Shown here: piece after piece, positions 943-36,144 of the stretch | Position numbering within the stretch: the stretch's first letter is position 1 | Layout of the letters: the number at the start of each line of letters is the position of its first letter | Virus record (IMG/VR): IMGVR_UViG_2728369608_000005 | DNA: 36,144 nucleotides | Reading direction: 5' to 3' (one strand) | DNA from: a virus | Lineage: Duplodnaviria; Heunggongvirae; Uroviricota; Caudoviricetes | The notes under the pieces: model-generated | The model's input: only the letters and a program-made list of their open reading frames with translations | Databases searched by the model: none | Told to the model about the DNA's origin: nothing | Made by a program: the position numbers and the translations under genes

Positions 943-944
943 GA

Positions 945-1388
945 ATGAACTCAGTATTCTTTTCACCCGGAAGTAAAAGTTTTTATCTGCAAGAATTGTT
1001 TCCAGAATATGAGGATGCGGGAACGCTTCCTGATGATGTTATTGAAATTACCAGAGAAACATATGAGCAATTTCTTGGGCTGCATCCAGAAGGGAAAGAA
1101 ATTGGCGCTGACAGTTCAGGACGGCCAATATGGATTAATTCCCCGCCGCCTTCAAAAGAGGATGAGATGCTGGCGGCTGAAATGAAAAAGATATCTTTGG
1201 TTTCAGAAGTCAATACCTACATCAATACCAATCAGTGGCCTGGCAAAGCTGCTATTGGTCGTCTGAAAGGTTACGAGCTGGAACAATATAATTTATGGCT
1301 GGATTATCTGGACGCACTGGAACTGGTTGATACCTCCAGTGCTCCAGATATTGAATGGCCTACGCCTCCGGTAGTTCAGGCCAGATGA
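945..1388 (+). CDS. Tail fibre assembly chaperone (Tfa), cognate to variant A
   Basis: C-terminal Tfa signature LWLDYLDALELVDTSSAPDIEWPTPP; directly follows fibre A. Confidence 0.75.
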   Translation: MNSVFFSPGSKSFYLQELFPEYEDAGTLPDDVIEITRETYEQFLGLHPEGKEIGADSSGRPIWINSPPPSKEDEMLAAEMKKISLVSEVNTYINTNQWPGKAAIGRLKGYELEQYNLWLDYLDALELVDTSSAPDIEWPTPPVVQAR

Positions 1389-21146: not shown

Positions 21147-21691
21147 GAGGCAATCCCCAGAATTTCACGACGCAGCGCCTGTACCGCATCGGTTGACAGT
21201 CCACCCTTACGGGCAATTTTCTCGGCGTTGCTGGCCGCCTGCTGCGCTCTGGCCCGGACTTCAGACTGGAACTTCTTGAGGTTGACGGAAGCGCGGGACA
21301 GCGTGGCCACGTTCTTTGCCACCTTCGACAACAGCGCCACGCGCTCTTTGGGGTCGACTTCGCCTTCTTCCGCTTCCTGCAGCTGGACGATGCTCTCGAA
21401 CAGCTCGGTCTGAATCAGGGCGATCACCGCCTCCGAACGTGCATCCTGATCGTCAGCCGCACCTTCGGTCAGCATCCGGGCCGCTTCAGTGGCTGCACGG
21501 ATAGCGCCATAGCGGCGCTCAATCTTCTGGCCATAGCGATGGATAGCCGATTTGCTGATGACATAACCCTGCTCACGCAGCAGGGACTCCAGCTCGTTAT
21601 ACCCGCTGAAGCCGGATTCAGTCAGCGCCCGCTCAAGCCAGCGACGCACGTCTTCCGGCAGCTTTTCTATCGTGCTGCGTCTGGCCATCAT
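21143..21691 (-). CDS. Mu gp27-like protein (putative small terminase / DNA-binding)
   Basis: 182 aa, N-terminal motif EKLPEDVRRWLE...SKSAIHRY, directly upstream of large terminase. Confidence 0.65.
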   Translation of the reverse strand: MMARRSTIEKLPEDVRRWLERALTESGFSGYNELESLLREQGYVISKSAIHRYGQKIERRYGAIRAATEAARMLTEGAADDQDARSEAVIALIQTELFESIVQLQEAEEGEVDPKERVALLSKVAKNVATLSRASVNLKKFQSEVRARAQQAASNAEKIARKGGLSTDAVQALRREILGIAS

Positions 21692-24039: not shown

Positions 24040-24170
24040 GGGTGTCTCCTTGTTGTGTGGGAGACAGCATCACAAATGTGGCGGGATACGGATTTTAAAG
24101 CGCGTTATAAGTGTTCGCAGAGGGAAGCGGCCAGAATGGTGGCACACAAAACACAGGGGAGGCAAGCACG

Positions 24171-24494
24171 ATGACTGAACCGAAACAGACCGGTCTTAAA
24201 AAAGGGTTCCTCTTTGGGATCAGAACCGGAGAGCAGAATAAAACTTACACGCTAAGCGTGGATGCCAGTTGCCCAACCGAGGCGATTGCAGAACTGAGAA
24301 ACGCGCTGACGGCGCTTGAAACGCGAAGCAGCCATTTCGCCAGCGGAGAAAACAACGTCATGATGATTGGCAATGTGGCGGCGACATCACGATATAAAGC
24401 CGTACCTAATCCTACTACTCAGTTATCCGGCGACCAACGAAGACTGGAAGCGGAATCAGCAGTTCCCAGAACGGTTCTTCCTCACCAGTCTTAA
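24171..24494 (+). CDS. Hypothetical small protein (108 aa)
   Basis: ATG preceded by GGGGAGG at 8-nt spacing; divergent from the holin; last 80 bp overlap the 188-aa gene. Confidence 0.3.
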   Translation: MTEPKQTGLKKGFLFGIRTGEQNKTYTLSVDASCPTEAIAELRNALTALETRSSHFASGENNVMMIGNVAATSRYKAVPNPTTQLSGDQRRLEAESAVPRTVLPHQS

Positions 24495-24981
24495 CCGGGG
24501 CCGCTTCTCCCGCCCAGTAAAGCCAGGCCCGGTGATATAATTCCAGCACCGGGCAATCACTGTTCAATAACCTCATATCTCCGCGATGCACCGGCTCATC
24601 TGTGATTACTTCATATATCGGTGCCGTTCTGATTTCGTCTTCGCCTCTCTCATCGGCCAGTAATGCCCGGAACTTCCTGACTTCACTCAGATGCTGACAG
24701 GCAAACAGTGACTGATAGCGGGAAGGTTTGTCAGGAAAATGGCTACGGCGAACTAACTCAAACACCAGACCGACCAGCAGACTTCTGCTGACTCCACTGT
24801 CATCTTCCATTTTAGGGCCGGGGTTATAGAGATAGTTATGACCGTGCTTGGAAAGACCATCGGGATACATCTGATGAAGGAAAGCGGCCAGCTCCGGCGC
24901 TTCAGGTTCGTATTTTCCGGTAATTACATGGCAAGGCGAAGGCAGACGATTAGCGGAATCAAGTGTGTAATACGTTCCCAT
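24415..24981 (-). CDS. Hypothetical protein (188 aa), unknown function
   Basis: ATG-initiated ORF immediately upstream of the lysis/late arm; no family recognised. Confidence 0.55.
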   Translation of the reverse strand: MGTYYTLDSANRLPSPCHVITGKYEPEAPELAAFLHQMYPDGLSKHGHNYLYNPGPKMEDDSGVSRSLLVGLVFELVRRSHFPDKPSRYQSLFACQHLSEVRKFRALLADERGEDEIRTAPIYEVITDEPVHRGDMRLLNSDCPVLELYHRAWLYWAGEAAPVKTGEEEPFWELLIPLPVFVGRRITE

Positions 24982-25224
24982 TCAGAAAACAATCCTTATC
25001 GAACAAACACTGCACGTAGGTAACACATCCAGTAAATCGCGTTAATAGAAAACAGTTATCCATAAGCCTCATCCTGACAATGAAAGAACGACCAGCCCGG
25101 TGCGGTAACACCAGGCTGGTCATCAACCCACAGGTATGCACTGTGAGCCGACCAGGGTTCAGTCAGTCTCGCGAGACCAGACTAGCCTGCCATATTTTCA
25201 CTGATTGCAAAAGGCTTACGGATA

Positions 25225-25995
25225 ATGAAAGAACAATCTTTACCCATCGTTCCATGGATTGGCGGCAAACGTCGTCTGGCTAAGCATATTCTGCCGCTGT
25301 TCCCGGCCCATACCTGCTATGTGGAGCCGTTCTGTGGGGCCGCTGCGCTCTATTTTCTTAAGACACCCAGCAAGACCGAAGTCATTAACGATATCAACGG
25401 GGAACTGGTGAACCTCTATCGGGTGGTCAAGCATCATCTGGAAGAATTTGTTCGCCAGTTCAAATGGGCGCTGGTCAGCCGTCAGATTTACAAATGGTTG
25501 CAGGATACGCCGGAAGAAACTCTCACCGACATTCAGCGGGCGGCCCGGTTCTACTACCTGCAGAAACAGGCGTTTGGCGGCAAGGTGGCCGATCACTCGT
25601 TCGGAACCTCCACCACAAGTGCGCCGCGCTTTAACCTCCTGCGCATCGAAGAAGAACTGTCGATGGCACACCTGCGCCTGTCGAGAACGCTGATAGAGCA
25701 TCTGGACTGGCACCAGTGCATAGAGCGATATGATCGCCCGCATACGCTGTTCTACTGTGACCCACCATACTGGGGAACAGAGGGCTATGGTGTGGAGTTC
25801 GGGCTGGAAAACTATGATCACATGGCAGATTTAGCGCGAAGGATCAAAGGGAAGATGATTATATCAGTGAACGATATCCCGGAAATGCGGCAGGTATTCA
25901 ACGGTCTGAACATGCAGTCGGTTGATATCAGCTACAACCTTAAGGTAACAGGTAAACCCAGCCCGAAGAAAGAGCTGGTAATTTGTAATTTTTGA
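25225..25995 (+). CDS. DNA adenine methyltransferase, Dam family, no adjacent restriction gene
   Basis: N-terminal PWIGGKRRL and FCGAAALYF motifs and catalytic DPPY (FYCDPPYWGT). Confidence 0.85.
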   Translation: MKEQSLPIVPWIGGKRRLAKHILPLFPAHTCYVEPFCGAAALYFLKTPSKTEVINDINGELVNLYRVVKHHLEEFVRQFKWALVSRQIYKWLQDTPEETLTDIQRAARFYYLQKQAFGGKVADHSFGTSTTSAPRFNLLRIEEELSMAHLRLSRTLIEHLDWHQCIERYDRPHTLFYCDPPYWGTEGYGVEFGLENYDHMADLARRIKGKMIISVNDIPEMRQVFNGLNMQSVDISYNLKVTGKPSPKKELVICNF

Positions 25996-26008
25996 AAGAG
26001 GTAGTTAA

Positions 26009-26036
26009 AGGTGGTGGTGCATCTGCAGCACCACCT
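26009..26036. terminator. Hairpin between convergent Dam and lipoprotein genes (possible bidirectional terminator)
   Basis: AGGTGGTGGTGCA / TGCAGCACCACCT, 13-bp stem with one mismatch; weak T-tracts on both sides. Confidence 0.4.
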
Positions 26037-26042
26037 AAACAT

Positions 26043-26576
26043 TTAATCCTGCCTTGGACAAGTCCAATAATCATTATCTGGCTCTGGTGAATAAGCTTTC
26101 AAACAACCTGCTCGCGGGGTCTTACCATCATCTGTCATAGGAACTTTTTCCTTATCAAGTTTCACGGTCAGGTCTCCACCAGGAACATCCGTTTTATCGA
26201 AAAAAACAGCCTGACATGCTGATTTAGATATTTTCACTTCGTGGGCATTATTTGATATGAACAAATAACAATTATGACCAGAGGCTATGTAGTCACTTGG
26301 AATATTATTTTCGTCTTTAATATGAAACTGCACCGTTGTCACCGGGCGTTCGCTATCCTCGGATACTTCGACTTTTTCAAAACTGTCCGCGTACTTATCC
26401 AGGCCGGGGAGTTGTTGGCGAATAAACGGTAATTCGCGATTTACAACCGGATTATCTGTTTCAACGCTAAAAACCGCGTGCTCCTTAGCTGTGGTGGACG
26501 TATCAGCAGGATCGGTATTATCTCCACACCCAGATAAAACAAATATCAACGGTAAAAATAATTTGCGCATAGTCAT
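26043..26576 (-). CDS. Lipoprotein moron (candidate lysogenic-conversion / superinfection-exclusion protein)
   Basis: Signal peptide with lipobox LSGC; gene visibly AT-rich versus surrounding phage DNA; 35 bp downstream of the repressor on the same strand. Second ATG at 26570 has better Shine-Dalgarno spacing. Confidence 0.75.
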   Translation of the reverse strand: MTMRKLFLPLIFVLSGCGDNTDPADTSTTAKEHAVFSVETDNPVVNRELPFIRQQLPGLDKYADSFEKVEVSEDSERPVTTVQFHIKDENNIPSDYIASGHNCYLFISNNAHEVKISKSACQAVFFDKTDVPGGDLTVKLDKEKVPMTDDGKTPRAGCLKAYSPEPDNDYWTCPRQD

Positions 26577-26611
26577 GTCCTTATACCTCTAATGTTCTTA
26601 ATAGGAACAGA

Positions 26612-27022
26612 TTAACCCGTATTTTTTAATCTTTCGAACGCTGCGGACAGCTCCTTAAGCTGTTTTTCCATATCAATCATTCGCTGTTTTTCCTCAGCGC
26701 CTCGCAGCAACTCTTTTCGCACCTCTGGCTCCAGTTGGTTGAGCAGCTCCAATAACTTCAGATCAGACTGGTTGAAATGCTGCTCCTGATTAGCTGGCTG
26801 TGCTTTCTCTACCCCAACAGCTTCCCCTTTACCAGTAAGTAGCCAATCTATTGATATGTTCAAATGGGTGCTTAGCGCAACAAGAGCCTCTGCATTAGGT
26901 TCTCTCTCTCCACGCAGATAGTTTTGAAGTGAGCGATATGGAATTTTTGACAAGTCTGACAATGCCTTAATTGTCAGACCCTTAGCATCCATCGCTTCGC
27001 GCAATCTCTCTTTTATACTCAT
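26612..27022 (-). CDS. Phage repressor, XRE-family HTH
   Basis: Internal ATG at 27022 (MSIKERLREAMDAKGLTIKALSDLSKIPYRSLQNYLRGER, 136 aa); divergent from the early operon. Confidence 0.75.
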   Translation of the reverse strand: MSIKERLREAMDAKGLTIKALSDLSKIPYRSLQNYLRGEREPNAEALVALSTHLNISIDWLLTGKGEAVGVEKAQPANQEQHFNQSDLKLLELLNQLEPEVRKELLRGAEEKQRMIDMEKQLKELSAAFERLKNTG

Positions 27023-27038
27023 TTGAACATATCTCAAT

Positions 27039-27066
27039 TTGACATACCCGTTTGGGTGCGTACAAT
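27039..27066 (+). promoter_or_regulatory. Candidate early promoter (sigma-70 type) for the ner-A-B operon
   Basis: TTGACA (27039..27044), 16-bp spacer, TACAAT (27061..27066); AGGAA Shine-Dalgarno 10 nt before the ATG at 27111. Confidence 0.5.
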
Positions 27067-27110
27067 AGACCCAATAGAGTACATCATAACCCAACAGGAA
27101 CACGGTGCAT

Positions 27111-27335
27111 ATGAACAAACAACAAGTTCGGGCACGGCTGGTTGAAAGAGGCAGTAGCTTGCGCCAGTTCGCGCTTAACGCGGGCTATGAGCCACGAACA
27201 GTCACCCAGGCTGTCAGCCGCTGGGCAGGCAAAAGCGAACTTCCACGCGGTCGTTTGACTTATCGGATTTTGCGAGACCTTTCGGTCGCAATAGGCAAAG
27301 AAGTTACCCCCGGCATCCTCAAGGAGGCGTCATGA
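27111..27335 (+). CDS. ner: Ner-like DNA-binding protein
   Basis: 74 aa; LRQFALNAGYEPRTVTQAV pattern resembles Mu Ner; first gene of the early operon. Confidence 0.65.
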   Translation: MNKQQVRARLVERGSSLRQFALNAGYEPRTVTQAVSRWAGKSELPRGRLTYRILRDLSVAIGKEVTPGILKEAS

Positions 27336-27637
27336 GTAAACCAAATACATCAAGCTCAGGTACCCGTATTTTGCGTGTCCTTAAGGCTTTACGCGGTCAC
27401 GCTCTGAACGGTGTTTCTAACGGCGAGCTGGCGTCAGCTCTGGGCGAGTCCCCGGCGAATATCAATCGGGCGCTCAATACCCTTATCGAAGAAGGACTGG
27501 CCCTGAAACTGGATAACGGGCGTTTTGCCCCAGGAGTCCAGCTCTTACAAATCGCCATGGCGCACAGTACCGAAATGGCGCGGGCGCAGGATCGTATCAA
27601 TGAAATTAACCAGCGTGTTATGGCTGGTAGTCGCTAA
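27332..27637 (+). CDS. Winged-HTH DNA-binding protein (IclR-N-like, no effector domain)
   Basis: 101 aa; RILRVLKAL...GVSNGELASALGESPANINRALNTLIEEGLA; ATGA overlap with ner. Confidence 0.55.
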   Translation: MSKPNTSSSGTRILRVLKALRGHALNGVSNGELASALGESPANINRALNTLIEEGLALKLDNGRFAPGVQLLQIAMAHSTEMARAQDRINEINQRVMAGSR

Positions 27638-27646
27638 GGAGTTGAA

Positions 27647-28555
27647 ATGGGACGCACAAAATCACAACCAGTTGAACTAGTGGAAGATGCACCGCTGACC
27701 GATGGTCTCAGTGTCAGTCTTAATGCTATGTCCGAACATCGCCTCGAAATCATGCAGCAGTTTGGTGATGGCCTGCCGTATGAACGTGATCGTATTGTCC
27801 ATGAAACACGTTTTTATATGGCTCAGAGTGCTGAAGCCATGCTGGAGGCGGGTAAACGACTGGTAATTCTCAAAGAAAATGAACCACATGGTGACTTCAT
27901 CGACATCGTTGAGTCTCAGTTGTCCCTATCCAAACGTACCGCGCAGGTGATGATGCAAGCATCCCTCAAATATTTGTCTCCCAAGCTTGAACCAAAAGCG
28001 CAAGCGCTTGCGCTTTTGGGTAAAACAAAGCTGTTTGAGTTGATGACGGAAGATGACGAAGACCTCGTCGAATTAGCCGATGGCGGCACGATTGCTGGTA
28101 TGAGCCTCGATGATATTGATCGCATGACAAGCCGCGAACTGAAAGCGGCCCTACGCGAAGCGCGTGAAACCAACGCAGCACAACAGCGCGTGCTTGCCGA
28201 CAAAAACGAAAAAATCGACTCGCTTTCCACAAAACTGGAGAAGAAATCCCGTATCCAGCCGCCCAAGCCTGACGAAGAGGTGAAGAAGCTGCGTGCGGAA
28301 GTTACAGCGTTAGCGGTTGAGGCGGAATCTGCCATCGCCGTTCGACTGTCCAGCGCCTTTGAGACCCTGTGCGCATACTGTGCTGAAAATATGATTGATA
28401 CCCCCAGAGACTTTATGGCCGGTCTGGTCTGCCAGTTGGAAAGCACCGCGCGTAGCCTGCGCTCCACATTTGACCTGCCGGACGAGCCGACAGGCAACGC
28501 CGCCCCTTCATGGCTGACTGACCCGACGCCAGAGATTAACGGGCAGGAGGCATAA
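27647..28555 (+). CDS. Conserved Mu-like early protein upstream of transposase (possibly DUF3102-like)
   Basis: 302 aa with a charged coiled-coil centre; family name recalled, not verified. Confidence 0.5.
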   Translation: MGRTKSQPVELVEDAPLTDGLSVSLNAMSEHRLEIMQQFGDGLPYERDRIVHETRFYMAQSAEAMLEAGKRLVILKENEPHGDFIDIVESQLSLSKRTAQVMMQASLKYLSPKLEPKAQALALLGKTKLFELMTEDDEDLVELADGGTIAGMSLDDIDRMTSRELKAALREARETNAAQQRVLADKNEKIDSLSTKLEKKSRIQPPKPDEEVKKLRAEVTALAVEAESAIAVRLSSAFETLCAYCAENMIDTPRDFMAGLVCQLESTARSLRSTFDLPDEPTGNAAPSWLTDPTPEINGQEA

Positions 28556-28558
28556 CCC

Positions 28559-30328
28559 ATGAGTGCCGCCCTGACTGAACGACTGGTTTATGTTGCCCGC
28601 GCGGCACGTGACGCGGGGCATGGTAAGCGTGGTGCGATATATGATGCCGCCTGCGCCGAACTGGGCATTTCCCGCGCCACCCTGCTGCGCAAGCTGAAGG
28701 AGGTATCAGTGACTGACAAACGTAAAAAACGCGCCGATGCCGGGCGCAGTGCCCTGAGCCGCGACGAAGCCGCGCTGATATCTGCCACGCTGCGCGAGGC
28801 CACCCGTAAGAACGGTAAGCGCCTGTATTCCATCGCGGATGCGGTGGAGACCCTGCGGTCAAACGGCTTTATCACTGCTGGCAGAACGGACGAGGCCACA
28901 GGCGAGTTTTTCCCGCTGTCCGAGGACACCATCAGCCGCGCCCTGCGGAACTATGGTCTGCACCCGGAACAGCTTGACGCACCGGCCCCGTCGTCCGAGA
29001 TGGCCAGCCTGCATCCCAATCACGTCTGGGAGATTGATGCCTCACTTTGTACGCTTTACTACCTGAGCAACGGCCATAAAGGGTTGCAGGTGATGGACAG
29101 CTCGAAGTTCTACAAGAACAAGCCTGCCAACATCGCCCGCATCGCCAGTGACCGCGTGTGGAGTTACGAGATTACCGACCATACCAGCGGCTGGATTTAC
29201 GTTGAGTACGTGATGGGTGCGGAATCTGGTGAGAACCTCTGTTCTGTGCTTATCAACGCCATGCAGGAGCGCGGCGGCGCGGACGTGCTGCACGGCGTGC
29301 CGAAAATACTCTACCTTGATCCCGGTTCGGCGAACACCGCTGGCATGACGAAAAACATGTGCCGCTCGCTGGGCATCAATCTGATAGCGCACAAGCCGCA
29401 TAACGCCCGCGCCACCGGGCAGGTGGAAAAGGCCCGTGACATTATCGAACGTAAACTGGAGCCGGGTCTCAAATTCCAGCCGGTTCATAGCCTGGACGAA
29501 CTGAACGCGCTGGCGGTGAAATGGCGCAGCCACTTTAACGCCACGGCGGTCCACAGCCGCCACGGTAAAACCCGCACGGATATCTGGCTGAAGATTACTG
29601 CTGGCCAGCTGAAAAAAGCGCCATCCGTTGAGGTTTGCCGCGAACTGGCGGTGGCCGCACCGGAACTCCGTAAGGTCACACCAAAACTGCGCGTCTCGTT
29701 CCGGGGCAATGAGTTTGACGTTTCGACGGTACCGGGCGTACTGGTCGGCGAAAAACTGATGATTACCCGTAACCCGTGGCGCAGCGATGTGGCGCAGGTG
29801 GTGCTGACCGGTGAGGACGGTCACGAGACGTTCTTCCTAGTCGAGGAGGTCAGAAAGAACGAGTTCGGCTTTGCCGAAAGCGCGGCGGTATTTGGCGAAA
29901 ACTACAAAGCCCTGCCGGAGACCCCGGCGCAGACGGCGGCAAAAGAAATCGAAGAGCTGGTTACGGGCACCGATAACGCCACCGATGCAGCTGCTGCACG
30001 CAAGGCGAAGGCGCTGCCGTTCGGCGGGCGACTTGACCCGTACAAACATATCGACGACACCACGCTTCCGGCCTATATGCCGAAGCGCGGTCAGGCTTCA
30101 GACGTGCGCGGGCCGCGTATTGAGCAGCGTCCGCTGACCCATGTGGAGGCGGCGAAAGCCCTGCGCGAGAAGTTTGGCGCTAACGGCCATATCTGGACGC
30201 CGGAACATTACCGCCAGTTAACGGCACAGTACCCGGACGGCGTACCGGAAGCCGCTCTGGATGAGGTCATGGTCACCCTGACCACTCCGGCCCGCAACAG
30301 CGTTATCAGCATCGTTAACGGTAACTGA
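28559..30328 (+). CDS. DDE transposase (Mu A-like function)
   Basis: 589 aa; candidate DDE residues in HVWEIDAS, LYLDPGSANT and a downstream Glu; followed by the B-like ATPase. Confidence 0.8.
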   Translation: MSAALTERLVYVARAARDAGHGKRGAIYDAACAELGISRATLLRKLKEVSVTDKRKKRADAGRSALSRDEAALISATLREATRKNGKRLYSIADAVETLRSNGFITAGRTDEATGEFFPLSEDTISRALRNYGLHPEQLDAPAPSSEMASLHPNHVWEIDASLCTLYYLSNGHKGLQVMDSSKFYKNKPANIARIASDRVWSYEITDHTSGWIYVEYVMGAESGENLCSVLINAMQERGGADVLHGVPKILYLDPGSANTAGMTKNMCRSLGINLIAHKPHNARATGQVEKARDIIERKLEPGLKFQPVHSLDELNALAVKWRSHFNATAVHSRHGKTRTDIWLKITAGQLKKAPSVEVCRELAVAAPELRKVTPKLRVSFRGNEFDVSTVPGVLVGEKLMITRNPWRSDVAQVVLTGEDGHETFFLVEEVRKNEFGFAESAAVFGENYKALPETPAQTAAKEIEELVTGTDNATDAAAARKAKALPFGGRLDPYKHIDDTTLPAYMPKRGQASDVRGPRIEQRPLTHVEAAKALREKFGANGHIWTPEHYRQLTAQYPDGVPEAALDEVMVTLTTPARNSVISIVNGN

Positions 30329-30338
30329 GGAGGAAGGC

Positions 30339-31505
30339 ATGCTGGTACTGAAGCAACAACTGAAAGAGGCCCGCATCCCGCAGGCGGCGGTGGCAAGAGC
30401 CGTCGCCGTTTCCGAGGCCACGCTGGCCCAGATTGTGAACCATAACGAGTGGCCCCGCACCAGCCCCGAAGAGGTACGCCAGCGTCTGGCGTTGTATCTG
30501 GAAAGTAAGGGGATTGATACAGCGAAAAGTTTTGATGCTGCACAGGGCGCTGTCACACCCCGTACAGCGGGTACTACCGATAAAACCAACCTCAGTGAGG
30601 AAGAGAACATGTTACTCAAAAAGCAGGTGTTATTTCCAGCAACCAAAAAAGCGTTTGGTCTTTTCCGTGACCCGTTCGCCGATGAAGCCATGCAGGGCGC
30701 GGACGATGTGTTCACCACGCCGGATATCCGCTACGTGCGTGAGGCGCTGTTCCAGACCGCCCGCCACGGTGGCTTTCTGGCGGTTATCGGCGAGTCCGGT
30801 GCGGGTAAATCCACGCTGCGCCGCGACCTGATTGAACGCGTCAACCGCGAGAACGCGCCGGTGATTGTTATCGAGCCATACATCATCGCCATGGAAGACA
30901 ACGACGTGAAGGGCAAAACCCTGAAGGCGGCAGCTATCGCCGAGGCCATCATCAGCACCATCGCGCCGCTGGAGAGTATCAAACGCAGCCAGGACGCCCG
31001 TTTCCGCCAGTTGCACCGCGTCCTGAAGGACAGCAGTCAGGCGGGTTTTAGCCACGTTCTGGTGATTGAGGAGGCCCACAGTCTGCCCATTCCGACGCTG
31101 AAGCACCTCAAACGCTTCTTTGAGCTGGAATCCGGCTTCAAAAAACTGCTGTCCATCGTGCTGATTGGCCAGCCTGAGCTGGCGGACAAACTGTCCGAAC
31201 GCAACATGGAAGTCCGTGAGGTCGTCCAGCGCTGCGAGGTGGTTGAACTGCTGCCGCTGGACAACAGCCTCGAAGAGTTTCTGACGTTCAAACTGCAACG
31301 CGCCGGTAAGCAGCTGTCTGACATCATGGACGCCAGCGCAGTGGAAGCCGTCCGCGCCCGTCTGAGCAATCTGGGCAGCAACCGTAAAAGCATGGTCAGC
31401 CTGCTGTATCCGCTGGCCGTCAGTAACCTGGTGATAGCCGCCATGAATCTGGCTGCTGAAATCGGGGTTCCGCAGGTCAACGCCGACGTCGTCAAAGGAG
31501 TTTAA
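30339..31505 (+). CDS. Transposition ATPase (Mu B-like, AAA+)
   Basis: 388 aa; N-terminal HTH-like region; Walker A GESGAGKST; Walker B-like VLVIEEAH. Confidence 0.8.
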   Translation: MLVLKQQLKEARIPQAAVARAVAVSEATLAQIVNHNEWPRTSPEEVRQRLALYLESKGIDTAKSFDAAQGAVTPRTAGTTDKTNLSEEENMLLKKQVLFPATKKAFGLFRDPFADEAMQGADDVFTTPDIRYVREALFQTARHGGFLAVIGESGAGKSTLRRDLIERVNRENAPVIVIEPYIIAMEDNDVKGKTLKAAAIAEAIISTIAPLESIKRSQDARFRQLHRVLKDSSQAGFSHVLVIEEAHSLPIPTLKHLKRFFELESGFKKLLSIVLIGQPELADKLSERNMEVREVVQRCEVVELLPLDNSLEEFLTFKLQRAGKQLSDIMDASAVEAVRARLSNLGSNRKSMVSLLYPLAVSNLVIAAMNLAAEIGVPQVNADVVKGV

Positions 31506-31507
31506 TC

Positions 31508-31777
31508 ATGAAATCCATCGCCGATATCAACCAGCAGATGAACAAGGTGCAGTCCGCCATTATGGCGCTCAACGCCATGAACACTACCGTGCAGAGCGTC
31601 ATGATTGCTGGCAGTAAGCCGGTTATCCGTATCGCCCGCAACGGGCACTGTGCCCGCCTGCTGGAGCAGGGCAAAGCGAGTTATACCCATGTTGGCCATG
31701 ACGGCTCAGGGCGCTTCCGTCAGGGCGTCTTTGAGTTGCATGGCTGCCGTATTACCTGGTCAGAGTCGTTACATTAA
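31508..31777 (+). CDS. Hypothetical early protein
   Basis: 89 aa, starts 3 bp after the B-like stop. Confidence 0.5.
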   Translation: MKSIADINQQMNKVQSAIMALNAMNTTVQSVMIAGSKPVIRIARNGHCARLLEQGKASYTHVGHDGSGRFRQGVFELHGCRITWSESLH

Positions 31778-31794
31778 CCATAAGGTGAACAGAG

Positions 31795-32406
31795 ATGAGC
31801 GAAGTAAATAAAGAAAACTACATGAAAGACCGCAAGGGGCGTCTGGTGCCGGTTGACCAGGTGTCTGACTATGACCTTGCGATGGACTCTTTCGTTAAAG
31901 AACAGGTTGCCGCCGCGAAGGTTAAACGCGATGAACTCAGCGACTTCAAGCGTCGTGCCTTTGACGAGTGCTATGCCTGGCTTGACCTTGTGGCCGAGAA
32001 GTACGGCAGAACACGCGGCGGTGCCAAAGGCAACGTGACCTTCAGCAGCTTCGACGGTGCTCAGCAGATCACCATCCGCGTGCAGGAAACCCTGACCTTC
32101 GGGCCAGAGCTGCAGATTGCCAAAGACCTGATAGACGAGTGCGTCACCGAGTGGTCGGAAGGCGCGAACGCCAACCTGCGGGCCATCATCAGCGATGCTT
32201 TTCAGGTGGACAAAGAGGGCCAGCTTAATACCGGACGTATTCTTTCCCTGCGCCGCGTCAAGATTCAGGACGAGCGCTGGAACCGGGCAATGGAGGCTAT
32301 ATCGGAATCACTGCAAGTGGCAATGTCCAAAACCTATATTAATTTCCGGGAGAAAGATAAACACGGGAAGCTAATTAATATCCCGTTAGATATCGCTGCC
32401 ATTTAA
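31795..32406 (+). CDS. Conserved Mu-like early protein (possibly DUF3164-like)
   Basis: 203 aa; family name recalled, not verified. Confidence 0.5.
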   Translation: MSEVNKENYMKDRKGRLVPVDQVSDYDLAMDSFVKEQVAAAKVKRDELSDFKRRAFDECYAWLDLVAEKYGRTRGGAKGNVTFSSFDGAQQITIRVQETLTFGPELQIAKDLIDECVTEWSEGANANLRAIISDAFQVDKEGQLNTGRILSLRRVKIQDERWNRAMEAISESLQVAMSKTYINFREKDKHGKLINIPLDIAAI

Positions 32407-32484
32407 TTTTAATTCAATTTCTTTTTATTTCGGCGTCAGCGCTGTGGGTTTCTGCACGCCGAAAACAGCATTAAGGAATAAAAC

Positions 32485-32673
32485 ATGTCCATCAAATGTA
32501 CCAACTGCCAGAAAGGTATCACCACCCTGAAGTTCAGCGACGCCAGCGTCATTACCTCCGGTAAGTACCGTGTGCCAGCCGTCCTCATCACGCTGGTATG
32601 CCCTCACTGCAGCCAGCATTACTACACCGAAGTTCCGGCCATGGAGTTCATCCCCTGCGAGGCAAAAAAATGA
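32485..32673 (+). CDS. Small zinc-ribbon protein
   Basis: 62 aa with CxxC (CTNC) ... CxxC (CPHC). Confidence 0.55.
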   Translation: MSIKCTNCQKGITTLKFSDASVITSGKYRVPAVLITLVCPHCSQHYYTEVPAMEFIPCEAKK

Positions 32674-32966
32674 AAGGCATGAAATTATATAACCGCTCCA
32701 CTATATACAATCTGGCCCTGAAAACCTTTGGCCCTGAAGCACAGGCGCTGAAGCTGATGGAAGAAGCCGCCGAGCTGGCCGCTGCTGCCGCCCGCAACAT
32801 GAACGGACTGGGCAGTGAAGTTGATCTGGCTGGCGAACTGGCTGACGTTGAAATCATGATTGAACAGTTCCGCCTCAACGGGATGGGCCTGATGATTGAT
32901 TTTCATAAGCAGAAAAAGCTGGAACGCCTTGCCGAACGCCTGGGGGTGACTTATGCCGCAGAATAA
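32670..32966 (+). CDS. MazG-like nucleotide pyrophosphohydrolase (small all-alpha type)
   Basis: 98 aa from the ATG at 32670 (ATGA overlap); EEAAEL and ELADVEIM metal-binding-like motifs. Confidence 0.55.
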   Translation: MKGMKLYNRSTIYNLALKTFGPEAQALKLMEEAAELAAAAARNMNGLGSEVDLAGELADVEIMIEQFRLNGMGLMIDFHKQKKLERLAERLGVTYAAE

Positions 32967-33642
32967 TGAAAAGCTGCTGGAGAAGTTAAAAAAGCTGCTG
33001 GCGCTGGCTAAATCTGACAACCCCCATGAAGCTGCACTGGCCCTACAACGCGCCCAGAAGCTGATGCAGGCCTATAACATCACCCAGGCTGACCTCGCAC
33101 TCAGCGATATTGATGAAAGCGTCAGTCACTACTGGGCAGCAGGTAGCGTTAACCCACCGCGATACATGCTGGGTCTGCTGGATATTATCCAGGTGGCATT
33201 TGGCGTTAAGTCTATTATTCACTCCGGCTTTAAACCCAGCGTTGGTTTTTACGGTAATAAAGACCGGGTTGAACTGGCCTCATATACATGGGAGGTACTG
33301 GCCAGACAATTAATCGTGGCCCGTAAAAACTATATTCGACAGCAGAATAAAAGAATCAAAAACACGACCAAGACCAGTCGTGGTGACAAGTTTGCCGAAG
33401 GCTGGGTTCTGGCCGTGCGCAGCGAGGTTCATTTATTTGCTATGTCCCGCGAAGAACGGGAGCTGGCAAGCCTCTGGCTTGAACAAAAATACCCTGACTC
33501 AGGCACAACTACGGGCCGTGGGGCCGGGAAGTCACGTGACGCAGACATGTCCCGCCACATCGGTTACAGAGAAGGGGAAAACGTCCGCCTGCATCAGCCC
33601 GTTGGCGGGCAGGAGCAGCATAAACTGAGGGCTGAAAGATGA
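32953..33642 (+). CDS. Conserved early protein with DUF2786-like N-terminus
   Basis: 229 aa; N-terminal LLEKLKKLLALAKSDNPHEAALALQRAQKLMQAYNI. Confidence 0.5.
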   Translation: MPQNNEKLLEKLKKLLALAKSDNPHEAALALQRAQKLMQAYNITQADLALSDIDESVSHYWAAGSVNPPRYMLGLLDIIQVAFGVKSIIHSGFKPSVGFYGNKDRVELASYTWEVLARQLIVARKNYIRQQNKRIKNTTKTSRGDKFAEGWVLAVRSEVHLFAMSREERELASLWLEQKYPDSGTTTGRGAGKSRDADMSRHIGYREGENVRLHQPVGGQEQHKLRAER

Positions 33643-33866
33643 TGTTATCGCGTAAGAAGAAAGCACCGAACCCTTGTCGTACAGCTGCTAAATATCTTTT
33701 TGCTCGCGCCTTTTTTAAGAACGTAAGGCCCGGCATTCAAATTGGCATTATTGCTGGACGAGAGCAGGTTAAAAATTACATGTCAGGTGCATGGTGGAAT
33801 AACGATCCGGTTACTACAGCCCGTAACATTCATATTAACTGGGGTGGGATTCATTATGATGGCTGA
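33639..33866 (+). CDS. Hypothetical small basic protein
   Basis: 75 aa, ATGA-coupled to the upstream gene. Confidence 0.4.
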   Translation: MMLSRKKKAPNPCRTAAKYLFARAFFKNVRPGIQIGIIAGREQVKNYMSGAWWNNDPVTTARNIHINWGGIHYDG

Positions 33867-34071
33867 ATCAATTGTATGTGCCCTGTTCTGGTATGGTCTC
33901 GTGGGGTGGTGTACTGCTGAACTGCACCGCCGCTCAGGTTTTTACTCACGTTACAGCGGTGCCGGACACTGGATCAGTTGGGCCGTTATGTTCATGTGCT
34001 GGCCTGTTGCGCTTCCTTTATATGTCGATTATATCGGTGGCGCAGGTAAAAGGAGCGACGATGATGACTAA
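33856..34071 (+). CDS. Small membrane protein
   Basis: ATG at 33856; hydrophobic Trp-rich segments (ALFWYGLVGW, WAVMFMCWPVALPLYV). Confidence 0.45.
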   Translation: MMAESIVCALFWYGLVGWCTAELHRRSGFYSRYSGAGHWISWAVMFMCWPVALPLYVDYIGGAGKRSDDDD

Positions 34072-34489
34072 GCAGCGTCTTATTCAACTCATCCATATTG
34101 CCCGCAATGACCTCCAGATGGATGAGGACACCTACCGCCAGATGCTACAGGGGCTGACCGGCAAAGCCTCAACCAAAGGGATGGATACCCCACAGCTAAA
34201 CCGCGTGCTGGAATCCATGAAAAATAAAGGCTTTCGCATTAAGCCTGCCGGGAAAGCCAAGTCCGGCTTACCGCTGGATAGTCATCCGCAGTCAAAGAAA
34301 ATCCGTGCGCTATGGCTTGAAATGGCTGCCGCAGGCATCGTCCGAGACAGTTCAGAGCAGGCGCTGGCGCTGTGGGTTAAACGGGAAACAGGCATCAGCG
34401 CGTTACGCTGGCTCAGCAATGAGCAGGCAAGTAGCGTGATTGAGAAACTGAAGAAGTGGCAGCGCAGAGCTGCGGGAGTGAAGCAATGA
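34061..34489 (+). CDS. gemA: GemA-like regulatory protein (Mu gp16-like)
   Basis: ATG at 34061 after AGGAG; RLIQLIHIARNDLQMDEDTYRQML ... KKIRALW ... ALRWLSNEQASSVIEKLKKWQ. Confidence 0.75.
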   Translation: MMTKQRLIQLIHIARNDLQMDEDTYRQMLQGLTGKASTKGMDTPQLNRVLESMKNKGFRIKPAGKAKSGLPLDSHPQSKKIRALWLEMAAAGIVRDSSEQALALWVKRETGISALRWLSNEQASSVIEKLKKWQRRAAGVKQ

Positions 34490-34875
34490 GTGACCTGAAT
34501 CAGTTTCGTAGTAAAGGGCCGGAACTGTTGGTAGAACTGGCACAGCATACCTCTGAGACCGTCCGCGAGATTATTGATATCGAACCCGCAGTTGCCGACC
34601 AGATTGGTCAGGCCGTCGCGAACCGCATGATGCAGGTCTGGGGTGGGCAAAACGTCTATTTTCCGATGGGCATGGTCTGGAAGGTCAGTCAGCGCGACCG
34701 GGAAATCTTCCTGGAGTTTGACGGACGCAACCATCACGAACTGGCCCGCAAATTCGGTGTTTCACTACAGTGGGTTTACAGCGTGGTGAAGCGGGTCAGA
34801 AAAGAAGAATTGGATCGGATGCAGGGCAAACTGTTTGATGGTGACTCTGATTCAGAGAAGGTGGAAAATAGCTAA
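34486..34875 (+). CDS. mor: Mor/C-family transcriptional activator
   Basis: 129 aa from the ATG at 34486; GGQNVYFP ... REIFLEFDGRNHHELARKFGVSLQWVYSVVKRVR. Confidence 0.75.
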   Translation: MSDLNQFRSKGPELLVELAQHTSETVREIIDIEPAVADQIGQAVANRMMQVWGGQNVYFPMGMVWKVSQRDREIFLEFDGRNHHELARKFGVSLQWVYSVVKRVRKEELDRMQGKLFDGDSDSEKVENS

Positions 34876-34894
34876 GCTATTTATAGGAGGACAG

Positions 34895-35224
34895 ATGGCC
34901 AGACCAAGCAATATTGATAAACTGCCAGAGGATGTTCGTGCCGAGCTTCATAGCGAATTATCGCGCACAAACTTCACCGGTTATGAATGGCTCTCGCTCT
35001 GGTTAGCCGATAAAGGTTACAGCGTATCGAAGTCAGCCATTCAGCGTTATGCTGTCGCGAATAAAAATGAAATTCTGGGCCTACAGCAAGAGAGTCGATT
35101 CCATCAGGCACAGCTTCGACTTAATGCGCTTGGTGTAGCGGCAACAATTTCACCAGGAAAAGACCTTGGAAGTTTGAAGAATGATGCAGATGCACTACTA
35201 AAATGGGCGTTGTTTGGTTACTGA
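34895..35224 (+). CDS. gp27-N-terminal-like paralog (DNA-binding?), last gene before the prophage end
   Basis: ATG at 34895 after AGGAGG; N-terminus IDKLPEDVRAELHSEL...SKSAIQRY parallels the gp27-like protein at 21143..21691. Confidence 0.55.
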   Translation: MARPSNIDKLPEDVRAELHSELSRTNFTGYEWLSLWLADKGYSVSKSAIQRYAVANKNEILGLQQESRFHQAQLRLNALGVAATISPGKDLGSLKNDADALLKWALFGY

Positions 35225-35230
35225 ATGAGT

Positions 35231-35256
35231 GGGGGGCATCGTCCCCCTTAATTTTC
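35231..35256 (+). terminator. Rho-independent terminator at the end of the early operon
   Basis: GGGGGG-catcgt-CCCCC hairpin followed by TTAATTTT, directly after the stop at 35224. Confidence 0.5.
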
Positions 35257-35320
35257 ATATACTGTAAATGAATTACATAACCTTTTGTTTGTCTCTTCCC
35301 ATCACGTACCATAAAGTCCC

Positions 35321-35356
35321 ATTTATCTTACGGTACCCCCTATATTTATCTCACGT
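35321..35356. repeat. Terminal direct repeats, candidate transposase-binding sites
   Basis: ATTTATCTTACGG (35321..35333) and ATTTATCTCACGT (35344..35356); element ends ...TCTAATCA at 35363. Confidence 0.5.
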
Positions 35357-35363
35357 CTAATCA

Positions 35364-36144
35364 GGCGGCGAAAGTGGGCGGCATTGTTGCCAACAACACC
35401 TATCCGGCAGATTTCATCTACCAGAACATGATGATTGAGAGCAACATCATTCACGCCGCGCATCAGAACGACGTGAACAAACTGCTGTTTCTCGGATCGT
35501 CCTGTATCTACCCGAAACTGGCAAAACAGCCGATGGCAGAAAGCGAGTTATTGCAGGGTACGCTGGAGCCGACTAACGAGCCTTATGCTATTGCCAAAAT
35601 CGCCGGGATCAAACTGTGCGAATCTTACAACCGCCAGTATGGACGCGATTATCGCTCGGTCATGCCGACCAACCTGTATGGCCCGCATGACAACTTCCAC
35701 CCGAGTAATTCGCATGTGATCCCTGCATTGCTGCGTCGCTTCCACGAGGCGACGGCACAGAATGCACCGGACGTGGTGGTGTGGGGCAGCGGTACACCGA
35801 TGCGCGAATTTCTGCACGTCGATGATATGGCGGCGGCGAGCATTCATGTGATGGAGCTGGCGCACGAAGTCTGGCTGGAGAACACCCAACCGATGCTGTC
35901 GCACATTAACGTCGGCACGGGCGTTGACTGCACTATCCGCGAGCTGGCGCAAACCATCGCCAAAGTGGTGGGTTACAAAGGTCGGGTGGTTTTTGATGCC
36001 AGTAAACCGGATGGTACACCGCGCAAACTGCTGGATGTGACACGCCTGCATCAGCTTGGCTGGTATCACGAAATCTCACTGGAAGCGGGGCTCGCCAGCA
36101 CTTACCAGTGGTTCCTTGAGAATCAAGACCGCTTTCGGGGGTAA
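35364..36144 (+). pseudogene. fcl: GDP-L-fucose synthase gene, 5'-truncated by the prophage insertion
   Basis: Reading frame from 35365 encodes [26 protein letters not shown]... to the C-terminus ...[11 protein letters not shown]; the N-terminal ~62 codons are absent from the window. Confidence 0.85.

What the first reader, a model, noticed from the sequence alone, without database searches (positions are those of the whole stretch)
31508..34071. Early accessory block with MazG-like pyrophosphohydrolase and zinc-ribbon protein
Between the B-like ATPase and GemA/Mor lie seven small genes in the position where Mu keeps host-takeover and anti-defence functions. The MazG-like enzyme could hydrolyse host alarmone or signalling nucleotides; the zinc ribbon and the unassigned 89-aa, 75-aa and membrane proteins are candidate anti-defence or superinfection factors.
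Basis: partly seen in the sequence, partly recalled or inferred. Interest (0 to 1): 0.5.

Follow-up and report, generated by a model that had tools for sequence, protein, structure and literature searches.

The report
Early accessory genes of a Mu-like prophage
The seven small genes are real early genes of a transposable (Mu-like, B3-type) prophage of E. coli, part conserved core and part swappable cargo that includes a small nucleotide-hydrolysing enzyme; this layout is already known for such phages, so the finding is sound but ordinary.

Summary
Seven tightly packed plus-strand genes lie between the B-like ATPase and GemA/Mor. Each has a ribosome-binding site and shows purifying selection (pN/pS 0.10-0.18). 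No internal promoter or terminator was found, so they belong to the early operon.

The prophage is B3-type, with an inverted early operon, and is inserted in host fcl.

The block has two layers:
- **Conserved layer.** The 89-aa gene directly after B is probably a distant Kil homologue. DUF3164 occurs in 210 transposable-phage records. DUF2786+DUF7168 sits next to DUF3164 even in Pseudomonas phage JBD25.
- **Swappable cargo.** The zinc ribbon, the MazG-like protein, the 75-aa protein and the membrane protein are present or absent among 54 related loci. The same interval elsewhere holds a dATP/dGTP pyrophosphohydrolase or a Lar restriction-alleviation gene.

The MazG-like call survives testing. 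The EExxE...ExxD motif is conserved, the model is a confident two-helix hairpin, and its best structural matches are phage NTP pyrophosphohydrolases. It scores just below Pfam's threshold and belongs to a very large family that Pfam barely covers.

An anti-defence role is plausible, with Atd1 as precedent, but it is untested. A role in conditioning the nucleotide pool for replication fits equally well.

Verdict: new member of a known kind, low to moderate interest.

The parts
31508..31777 (+). g1, 89 aa. It starts 2 nt after the B stop codon. PGAP names it 'HI_1482 family'. It is probably a distant homologue of Mu Kil (gp5).
   Evidence: phrog_2041 matches at 3e-33 and the Kil family phrog_6381 at E=0.0048. 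Mu Kil itself hits phrog_6381 at 1.3e-9. hhalign of the family alignment A2 against Mu Kil gives P=7e-4 and probability 26%, with shared [KR]P[VI]..I and L.GC.I.W motifs. It occupies the same slot as kil in Mu. It is present in 51 of 54 related loci. pN/pS is 0.13.
31795..32406 (+). g2, 203 aa, DUF3164. A conserved early gene of transposable phages with no known function.
32416..32462 (+). A conserved non-coding element between g2 and the variable cargo. It is a T-rich tract, then a small hairpin CGGCG-TCAG-CGYYG, then an invariant TGCACGC. It marks the boundary between the conserved and mosaic parts.
   Evidence: The element is conserved in every related locus except the two most divergent, whatever gene follows it. 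In the alignment of 19 variants, 98.9% of hairpin cells are paired, and 9 of the 10 changed cells (four C-to-T substitution types) keep a G.U pair, but there are no compensatory double changes. The alternative distal pairing is broken in four variants. There is no Rfam match and it is not terminator-like.
32485..32673 (+). g3, 62 aa, a zinc ribbon with two CxxC knuckles 30 residues apart. Function unknown.
   Evidence: C5, C8, C39 and C42 are invariant down to 28% identity. phrog_3401 matches at 1e-31. Only sub-threshold zinc-ribbon Pfam and NCBIfam hits were found. It is present in 44 of 54 loci. Similarity to Mu Com is limited to a single knuckle.
32670..32966 (+). g4, 98 aa, a minimal MazG-like all-alpha nucleoside triphosphate pyrophosphohydrolase.
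   Evidence: The EExxE...ExxD motif is conserved. phrog_2245 'NTP pyrophosphohydrolase' matches at 6e-31, with weaker hits to phrog_4856, 1992 and 715. PF01503 scores 18.7 bits against a cut-off of 21.3. PGAP names it 'nucleoside triphosphate pyrophosphohydrolase family protein'. The AF2 model has pLDDT 93 and two helices, 9-44 and 50-90. In BFVD, 8 of the top 11 hits are named 'Nucleoside triphosphate pyrophosphohydrolase' and one 'NTP-PPase-like protein', with E from 9e-5 to 0.05 and TM 0.62-0.82. The top of the PDB list is dominated by MazG, DCTPP1, HisE-domain and YpjD chains, but all at E>=0.6. The family has 16,063 clusters. It is present in 36 of 54 loci.
32953..33642 (+). g5, 229 aa, DUF2786 (N-terminal helical hairpin) plus DUF7168. 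A semi-core early gene with no known function.
   Evidence: PF10979 matches at 2e-13 and PF23771 at 1e-24. phrog_421 matches at 2e-70. It is present in 42 of 54 loci at 35-100% identity. It lies next to DUF3164 in Pseudomonas phage JBD25. No PDB relative was found by sequence or by profile.
33639..33866 (+). g6, 75 aa, sporadic cargo gene with no known function.
   Evidence: phrog_3681 matches at 1.5e-46. It is present in only 14 of 54 loci. pN/pS is 0.16 from 4 distinct homologues. No Pfam, NCBIfam or PADLOC family matched.
33856..34071 (+). g7, 71 aa, a small protein with two hydrophobic segments (about residues 1-20 and 38-55) and an acidic tail. It is probably a membrane hairpin.
   Evidence: phrog_6436 matches at 3e-14 over residues 1-60. 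A hydropathy profile shows the two segments. It is present in 38 of 54 loci at 39-100% identity, and relatives lacking g6 have the 71-aa form. pN/pS is 0.18.
30339..31505 (+). Left flank: the B-like (ExeA family) transposition ATPase. It is context, not part of the block.
   Evidence: PGAP names it 'ExeA family protein'. It has the same 1167-nt length as gp13 of JBD25.
34061..34875 (+). Right flank: GemA (34061-34489) and Mor (34486-34875). They are context, not part of the block.
   Evidence: PF06252 matches at 9e-41 and PF08765 at 1e-42. Identity to Mu GemA is 35% and to Mu Mor 30%.

Best explanation
**What it is.** The block is the middle of the early operon of a B3-type transposable prophage. 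It is transcribed together with the transposase A and the ATPase B when the repressor is lifted, and it ends at the terminator behind the last early gene.

**Conserved layer.**
- g1 sits in the kil slot directly after B. It most likely acts like Mu Kil, a small protein that harms or arrests the host cell early in lytic growth.
- DUF3164 is kept in transposable phages of many bacterial classes, and DUF2786+DUF7168 accompanies it as far away as Pseudomonas phage JBD25. They therefore most likely serve a basic step of lytic development (replicative transposition or general host takeover) rather than a host-specific counter-defence.

**Mosaic layer.** This layer starts right after a conserved 45-nt non-coding element. 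Here small genes are exchanged between relatives. This prophage carries a zinc-ribbon protein, a MazG-like enzyme, a 75-aa protein and a small membrane protein.

**The MazG-like enzyme.** It is a two-helix hairpin that should pair up into the four-helix bundle typical of all-alpha NTP pyrophosphohydrolases. It should bind Mg2+ through E31/E32/E35 and E56/D59, and cut a nucleoside triphosphate-type substrate into a monophosphate and pyrophosphate. That would reshape the nucleotide or alarmone pool of the cell early in the lytic cycle.

**Shown versus inferred.** Shown: gene reality, operon structure, family assignments, the core and cargo pattern, the catalytic motif and the fold class. Inferred: dimerisation, enzymatic activity, the substrate, the Kil-like action of g1, and any role of DUF3164 or DUF2786.
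For: - **Gene reality and operon.** ORFs, ribosome-binding sites and pN/pS of 0.10-0.18. No plus-strand promoter or terminator lies inside the block, and one terminator lies at 35231-35247.
- **B3-type layout.** Late genes are on the opposite strand, with the repressor in between. JBD25 shows the same order Mor<-GemA<-..<-DUF2786<-DUF3164<-..<-B<-A. The literature states that B3-like phages differ from Mu by an inversion of the early operon (PMC5977238).
- **Core versus cargo.** From the tblastn matrix over 54 loci: g1 in 51, g2 in 54, g3 in 44, g4 in 36, g5 in 42, g6 in 14, g7 in 38. 37 ORF families occupy the DUF3164-GemA interval. DUF3164 occurs in 210 phage records. Core and accessory architecture with plasticity regions in the early arm is described for Pseudomonas Mu-like phages (PMC4378225).
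- **Kil link.**, plus synteny with Mu.
- **MazG-like.**. There is also a transitive link: two of 66 distant family members hit PF03819 MazG at up to 4e-8.
Against: - No activity was tested, and nothing constrains the substrate of g4.
- g4 fails Pfam's gathering threshold. It has no PDB match with E<0.1 by sequence profile apart from weak hits (5ie9 at 0.028) and none by Foldseek. A helical hairpin is a low-information fold.
- The Kil relationship rests on weak statistics (E=0.005, hhalign probability 26%), and BLAST sees nothing.
- DUF3164 and DUF2786 have no structural or sequence link to any characterised protein. Their proposed 'basic lytic function' is inferred only from conservation.
- g5 is missing or replaced in 12 of 54 loci, so it is not strictly essential.
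Confidence: 0.6

Rival explanations
1. The MazG-like enzyme is a counter-defence factor of the Atd1 type. It would hydrolyse the alarmone (p)ppGpp, or an immune signalling nucleotide, and so prevent abortive-infection responses. The neighbouring small proteins would likewise be anti-defence or superinfection-exclusion factors.
For: - Precedent: Atd1 is a phage MazG-like pyrophosphatase that hydrolyses ppGpp and protects against TIR-STING toxicity (bioRxiv 10.1101/2022.06.09.495361).
- g4 is dispensable, being absent from 18 of 54 relatives. It lies in an interval where relatives carry a Lar restriction-alleviation gene (PF14354, 2e-8).
- Some distant family members carry an N-terminal Lar-like cysteine domain fused to the enzyme (P0082 and P0084).
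Against: - No sequence comparison with Atd1 was possible. tblastn finds g4 in only four Mu-like phage records.
- PADLOC and the other libraries give no defence or anti-defence link.
- Distant relatives sit in replication modules.
- The family has at least 16,063 clusters, far larger than expected for a narrow counter-defence specialist.
Confidence: 0.25
2. The MazG-like enzyme is a nucleotide-pool or 'house-cleaning' enzyme that serves phage DNA synthesis. It would remove non-canonical or excess (d)NTPs during replicative transposition and would have no dedicated role in immunity.
For: - Relatives at 40% identity lie next to DNA polymerase A, helicases, primase-like and VRR-NUC genes in non-Mu phages.
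- The same interval in sister prophages holds other deoxynucleotide enzymes: a PF04447 dATP/dGTP pyrophosphohydrolase (4e-45) and a YfbR-like 5'-deoxynucleotidase (weak).
- From established knowledge, the all-alpha NTP-PPase superfamily (MazG, DCTPP1, YpjD, dimeric dUTPases) is largely made up of house-cleaning enzymes.
Against: - It is absent from a third of close relatives that replicate the same way.
- It co-occurs with the PF04447 enzyme in two loci rather than replacing it (L009 and L021).
- Mu itself has no such gene.
Confidence: 0.35
3. Some of the small ORFs (g6 and the long form of g7) are annotation artefacts, meaning chance ORFs in a recombination scar.
For: g6 occurs in only 14 of 54 loci. 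It overlaps a longer alternative ORF (33742-34071) in another frame.
Against: g6 has pN/pS of 0.16 in its own frame, a GAGGG ribosome-binding site, an ATGA overlap with g5 and a PHROG family match at 1.5e-46. The 71-aa form of g7 is the one conserved in relatives that lack g6.
Confidence: 0.07

Closest known systems
Early region of B3-like transposable phages (Pseudomonas phages B3, JBD25, JBD67, PM105)
   Same: The early operon is inverted and runs toward the genome end. The gene order A, B..., DUF3164, DUF2786..., GemA, Mor is the same, and the B gene has the same length.
   Different: The host is enterobacterial. DUF3164 is only about 44% identical. The small genes between DUF3164, DUF2786 and GemA are different, and JBD25 has no MazG-like gene and no g3-type zinc ribbon in that place.
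Semi-essential early region of coliphage Mu (kil, gam, gp6-gp15)
   Same: It has the same position between B and gemA/mor and the same style of many small overlapping genes. These include cysteine-rich mini-proteins (Mu gp6, gp13) and a kil gene directly after B.
   Different: No BLAST or Pfam family is shared apart from GemA and Mor. There is no Gam here, and DUF3164 is not related to Gam. The Kil link is only remote.
Atd1, the MazG-like anti-TIR-defence pyrophosphatase of Pectobacterium phage PcCB7V
   Same: It is a small phage-encoded MazG-type catalytic domain carried as dispensable cargo.
   Different: The sequence relationship was not tested. The substrate and the protective effect are unknown for g4. 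g4 belongs to a separate, very large subfamily that Pfam MazG and PRA-PH models barely reach.
All-alpha NTP pyrophosphohydrolases with solved structures (Bacillus MazG 5ie9, YpjD 2gta, human DCTPP1 7mu5, HisE/HISN2, E. coli MazG 3cra)
   Same: g4 has the EExxE...ExxD metal-binding motif on two long antiparallel helices. These proteins dominate the top of the Foldseek PDB list (16 of the first 25 chains).
   Different: All matches have E>=0.6 and TM of only 0.40-0.54. The g4 model has only the two core helices, so it is a minimal version of the fold.
Core and accessory ('regions of genomic plasticity') architecture of Pseudomonas Mu-like phages (Cazares et al. 2014, PMC4378225)
   Same: Conserved genes are interrupted at fixed points by short variable ORFs, mostly in the early arm. 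The pattern over the 54 loci studied here is the same.
   Different: The phage lineage and host are different, and so is the cargo, which here includes NTP-PPases and Lar.

Membership tests
All-alpha NTP pyrophosphohydrolase superfamily (MazG / HisE / DCTPP1-like), for g4 | Metal-binding motif EExxE followed 12-28 residues later by ExxD | tested here: met
   The motif is E31 E32 A A E35 ... E56 L A D59, with 20 residues between E35 and E56. These residues are invariant or at least 90% conserved in 17 close homologues and in 66 distant homologues.
All-alpha NTP pyrophosphohydrolase superfamily (MazG / HisE / DCTPP1-like), for g4 | Score above the curated threshold of a family HMM (PF03819 MazG or PF01503 PRA-PH) | tested here: not met
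   PF01503 scores E=0.0023 and 18.7 bits against a cut-off of 21.3, and PF03819 gives no hit. NCBIfam gives only TIGR03188 at 15.6 bits against a cut-off of 42.7. Indirect support exists: phrog_2245 matches at 6e-31, and 2 of 66 distant family members hit PF03819 at up to 4e-8.
All-alpha NTP pyrophosphohydrolase superfamily (MazG / HisE / DCTPP1-like), for g4 | Fold: long antiparallel helices that form a four-helix bundle on dimerisation | tested here: inconclusive
   The monomer model is a two-helix hairpin with pLDDT 93. BFVD matches to phage NTP-PPases have E from 9e-5 to 0.05 and TM 0.62-0.82. PDB matches to MazG-like chains are only at E>=0.6. The oligomer was not modelled.
All-alpha NTP pyrophosphohydrolase superfamily (MazG / HisE / DCTPP1-like), for g4 | Mg-dependent hydrolysis of NTP to NMP plus PPi | not testable with these tools
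   This needs an enzyme assay.
Atd1-type anti-defence MazG | Hydrolysis of (p)ppGpp and protection from TIR-STING or retron-TIR toxicity | not testable with these tools
   Only the precedent was read.
Mu Kil (gp5), for g1 | Gene directly downstream of the B ATPase in the early operon | tested here: met
   g1 starts 2 nt after the B stop codon. kil follows B in Mu.
Mu Kil (gp5), for g1 | Detectable sequence homology to Kil | tested here: inconclusive
   phrog_6381 'Kil' matches at E=0.0048 over nearly the full length. Mu Kil hits the same family at 1.3e-9. hhalign gives P=7e-4 but only 26% probability. BLASTP finds nothing.
Mu Kil (gp5), for g1 | Host killing or a morphology change on expression | not testable with these tools
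   This needs an expression experiment.
DUF3164 (PF11363), for g2 | Full-length HMM match above threshold | tested here: met
   The match is 3e-80 and 268.9 bits against a cut-off of 23.7, covering profile positions 1-193 of 194.
Mu Gam / Ku-like end-binding protein, considered for g2 | Sequence or fold similarity to Gam | tested here: not met
DUF2786 + DUF7168, for g5 | Both domains above threshold, in this order | tested here: met
   PF10979 scores 50.4 bits against a cut-off of 23.9 over residues 7-45. PF23771 scores 86.9 bits against a cut-off of 25.5 over residues 47-187.
Zinc ribbon, for g3 | Two CxxC knuckles that are conserved across homologues | tested here: met
   C5, C8, C39 and C42 are invariant in 25 distinct homologues down to 28% identity.
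Mu Com translational activator, considered for g3 | Homology beyond a single CxxC knuckle | tested here: not met
   hhalign aligns only 17 columns, pairing knuckle 1 of g3 with knuckle 2 of Com. There was no PF10122 hit.
B3-like transposable phage | DDE transposase A, B ATPase, GemA and Mor in an early operon that is inverted relative to the late genes | tested here: met
   Searches show the layout. The order is the same as in JBD25. The definition comes from PMC5977238.

The most novel reading that the evidence does not exclude
The interval between DUF3164 and GemA may be an anti-defence island of enterobacterial B3-like phages. In that reading the minimal two-helix MazG-like enzyme, alone or together with the adjacent zinc-ribbon protein, destroys an alarmone or an immune signalling nucleotide. 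It would represent a very large family (at least 16,000 clusters) that Pfam does not cover and that would consist of phage counter-defence pyrophosphatases. The conserved hairpin element in front of the interval would be the recombination or regulatory boundary that lets such cargo be exchanged.
Probability: 0.15. Interest if true: 0.55.

Novelty: new member of a known kind. Interest (0 to 1): 0.25.

Why it matters
The block shows that B3-type transposable prophages of E. coli, Klebsiella, Salmonella and their relatives have the same core-plus-cargo early arm already described for Pseudomonas Mu-like phages. It also pins down where the cargo slot begins.

It yields a short list of testable genes:
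- a probable Kil-like host-arrest protein;
- two widely conserved early proteins with no known fold relatives (DUF3164 and DUF2786+DUF7168);
- a minimal MazG-like enzyme from a very large, poorly annotated family.

If that enzyme turned out to hydrolyse alarmones or immune signals, it would extend the Atd1 type of counter-defence to temperate transposable phages. If it proves to be a house-cleaning enzyme, the finding is routine.

Tried and rejected
- **g3 as a Com-like RNA-binding zinc finger.** Both are 62 aa and the N-termini look alike. hhalign aligned only one knuckle. Rejected.
- **g3 and g4 as an obligate pair.** They share an ATGA overlap, and fused ORFs exist (P0018, P0024, L008). However, each occurs without the other, and a 90-aa gene is inserted between them in 10 loci. 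Only 5 of the 49 N-terminal extensions (35 residues or longer) found among the 143 family representatives scanned carry two CxxC motifs. Not supported.
- **g4 related to the PF04447 enzyme found in sister loci.** hhalign gave P=0.32. Not shown.
- **PDB searches.** Single-sequence searches for g2, g4 and g5 and profile searches for g4 and g5 gave nothing significant.
- **Libraries.** PADLOC and NCBIfam gave no family above threshold, and Rfam no match. The PGAP name 'HI_1482 family' for g1 was not reproduced by the NCBIfam HMM scan.
- **Mu comparison.** BLASTP and Pfam comparison with all Mu early proteins found only GemA and Mor in common.
- **Literature.** Searches for DUF3164, DUF2786, DUF7168, PF11363 and PF10979 found no functional study.
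- **Unavailable tool.** The afdb50 fold library was not available.


Full report
**What is in the sequence**

Between the B-like ATPase (30339-31505) and GemA/Mor (34061-34875) lie seven plus-strand ORFs:
- g1: 31508-31777, 89 aa
- g2: 31795-32406, 203 aa
- g3: 32485-32673, 62 aa
- g4: 32670-32966, 98 aa
- g5: 32953-33642, 229 aa
- g6: 33639-33866, 75 aa
- g7: 33856-34071, 71 aa

Each has a Shine-Dalgarno-like sequence. Five junctions are 4-14 nt overlaps. pN/pS against distinct homologues is 0.10-0.18 for every gene, the same as for GemA and Mor. No sigma-70-like promoter and no plus-strand terminator lies inside the block. The only strong terminator is at 35231-35247, after the last early ORF. 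Rfam finds nothing.

**What the element is**

The block is 100% identical to prophages in E. coli GON1437 and C31. It is 95-96% identical, over 74-91% of its length, to Klebsiella phage KP12 clone 2 and Escherichia phage Phi06_2974 B.

In GON1437 the same prophage sits in the yahI region. In the window it interrupts fcl. Host sequence starts at 35364, the phage end reads ...TCTAATCA, and no complete E. coli genome in the collection has this junction. That is the behaviour of a transposable phage.

The late genes (holin to tail fibres, including a full-length gp27 at 21143-21691) are on the minus strand. A CI-like repressor lies at 26612-27118 on the minus strand. The early operon runs rightward to the genome end.

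Pseudomonas phage JBD25 has the same layout at its left end: Mor <- x <- GemA <- x <- x <- DUF2786 <- DUF3164 <- ... <- B (1167 nt, the same length) <- A. The literature defines B3-like phages by exactly this inversion of the early operon (PMC5977238). The window therefore holds an enterobacterial B3-type transposable prophage.

**Family assignments**

- **g2** is DUF3164 (3e-80).
- **g5** is DUF2786 plus DUF7168 (2e-13 and 1e-24).
- **g3, g6 and g7** have no Pfam family.
- **g1** has none either.
- All seven fall in PHROG families. PADLOC and NCBIfam add nothing.
- Against Mu itself, only GemA (35% identity) and Mor (30%) match by BLASTP. No Pfam family is shared with Mu gp5-gp15.

**g1 and Kil**

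g1 starts 2 nt after B, which is the slot of kil in Mu. It hits the PHROG 'Kil' family phrog_6381 at E=0.0048 over almost its whole length. Mu Kil hits the same family at 1.3e-9. hhalign of a 14-sequence g1 alignment against Mu Kil gives P=7e-4 and probability 26%, with shared [KR]P[VI]..I and C-terminal L.GC.I.W motifs. I take g1 to be a probable (about 60%) distant Kil homologue. In one relative (L025), B and g1 are fused in frame.

**The MazG-like protein g4**

- *Motif.* The diagnostic motif is present (E31 E32 x x E35, then E56 x x D59). It is invariant or nearly so in close and distant homologues.
- *Sequence families.* Pfam PRA-PH scores 18.7 bits, just under the 21.3 cut-off. PHROG NTP-pyrophosphohydrolase and MazG-like families match at 6e-31, 3.5e-5, 3.8e-4 and 4e-3. 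PGAP names the identical protein 'nucleoside triphosphate pyrophosphohydrolase family protein'.
- *Family size.* An exhaustive profile search finds 16,063 clusters at E<=1e-3 and 7,171 at E<=1e-10. Of 66 sampled members, only two reach Pfam MazG (best 4e-8) and one reaches PRA-PH. This is a very large subfamily that Pfam barely covers.
- *Structure.* The AlphaFold model is confident (pLDDT 93). It consists of two long helices, 9-44 and 50-90, which carry the two halves of the motif.
- *Structural matches.* Against PDB no match is significant. Even so, 16 of the first 25 chains are all-alpha NTP-PPases: DCTPP1, Bacillus MazG, the HISN2 PRA-PH domain, AF1178, DR2231, E. coli MazG and YpjD. Against predicted viral structures, 8 of the top 11 hits are named 'Nucleoside triphosphate pyrophosphohydrolase' and one 'NTP-PPase-like protein', with E from 9e-5 to 0.05 and TM 0.62-0.82.

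**DUF3164 and DUF2786**

**Core versus cargo**

I fetched 52 related viral contigs and scored every gene by tblastn over those, plus one E. coli genome locus and the phage KP12 locus. Presence in the 54 loci:

| Gene | Loci with the gene (of 54) |
|---|---|
| A, B | nearly all |
| GemA | 53 |
| Mor | 50 |
| g1 | 51 |
| g2 | 54 |
| g3 | 44 |
| g4 | 36 |
| g5 | 42 |
| g6 | 14 |
| g7 | 38 |

An ORF census of the DUF3164-GemA interval gives 37 families. Alternative cargo includes a PF04447 dATP/dGTP pyrophosphohydrolase (4e-45), a Lar restriction-alleviation protein (2e-8) and a weak YfbR-like 5'-deoxynucleotidase. This matches the core and accessory architecture published for Pseudomonas Mu-like phages (PMC4378225).

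It does not fit g1 and g2, and it fits g5 only partly.

**Function of g4**

Two readings remain open.
- *Counter-defence.* Atd1, a phage MazG-like enzyme, hydrolyses ppGpp and relieves TIR-STING toxicity. g4 is dispensable cargo in an interval that can also hold Lar. Some distant relatives are fused to Lar-like cysteine domains.
- *Nucleotide-pool conditioning.* Relatives at 40% identity lie in replication modules next to PolA, helicases and VRR-NUC. Sister loci carry other deoxynucleotide enzymes in the same interval.

Nothing computed here constrains the substrate. I rate pool conditioning at 0.35 and Atd1-like counter-defence at 0.25, with the rest undecided.

**g3, g6 and g7**

g3 is a zinc ribbon with four invariant cysteines. 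The resemblance to Mu Com is limited to one knuckle. g3 and g4 are not an obligate pair. g7 has two hydrophobic segments and an acidic tail. g6 is sporadic but is under purifying selection in its own frame.

**A side observation**

A non-coding element of about 45 nt directly after DUF3164 (32416-32462) is conserved in every relative except the two most divergent, whatever gene follows it. It contains a 5-bp GC hairpin that is paired in 98.9% of cells. Nine of the ten changed cells (four C-to-T substitution types) keep a G.U pair on the plus strand, but there are no compensatory double changes, so the support is weak. It marks the boundary between the conserved part and the mosaic part.

**Verdict**

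The finding is accurate and the MazG-like call stands. The block is the ordinary early arm of a known phage type, with a known core-plus-cargo architecture and a known class of phage enzyme. Novelty: new member of a known kind. Interest: 0.25.

Noticed in passing
window 35225-35373: The right end of the prophage lies at 35363 (...TCTAATCA), directly joined to host fcl (GDP-L-fucose synthase) from about codon 60 onward. The prophage therefore disrupts colanic-acid/fucose synthesis. None of 5,426 complete E. coli genomes has this junction, and the identical early block sits in the yahI region in strain GON1437, which fits active transposition.
   Followed up: partly
window 32416-32462: A conserved non-coding element follows the DUF3164 stop codon: a T-rich tract, a CGGCG-TCAG-CGYYG hairpin and an invariant TGCACGC. 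It is kept in every related locus except the two most divergent, regardless of the downstream gene. 9 of the 10 changed stem cells (four C-to-T substitution types) preserve G.U pairing on the plus strand. It could be an RNA stability or processing signal, or the recombination boundary of the cargo slot.
   Followed up: partly
window 34895-35224: The last early ORF (109 aa) matches only the first 53 of 173 positions of the Mu Gp27 family, that is, the N-terminal DNA-binding part. A full-length gp27 homologue lies in the late operon at 21143-21691 on the minus strand. The truncated copy lies next to the genome end and is found in only 9 of 54 related loci.
   Followed up: no
whole window; late genes 1360-24039 (-), early genes 27332-35224 (+): The early operon is inverted relative to the late genes and is transcribed toward the genome end. 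This is the organisation of B3-like phages rather than of Mu, and Pseudomonas phage JBD25 has the same gene order.
   Followed up: yes
window 24111-27118: The region between the late operon and the CI-like repressor (26612-27118, minus strand) holds a D12-class DNA adenine methyltransferase (25225-25995, plus strand), a DUF2441 protein (24415-24981, minus strand) and an unassigned 177-aa ORF (26043-26576, minus strand). This is a likelier place than the early block for anti-restriction genes or genes expressed in the lysogen.
   Followed up: partly
L025:1998-3440: In one related viral contig the B ATPase and the g1 homologue are fused into a single reading frame.
   Followed up: no
L008 (160-aa ORF); proteins P0018 and P0024: In a few relatives the zinc-ribbon and MazG-like genes are read as one fused ORF. 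Distant MazG-like relatives (P0082, P0084) carry an N-terminal Lar-like cysteine domain. Only about 10% of the N-terminal extensions in the family look like zinc ribbons.
   Followed up: partly
window 1-1388: The window starts inside a tail-fibre C-terminal ORF plus a tail-fibre assembly gene on the plus strand, opposite to the other tail genes. This suggests an invertible host-range segment like the Mu G segment. A recombinase lies next to it in GON1437.
   Followed up: no
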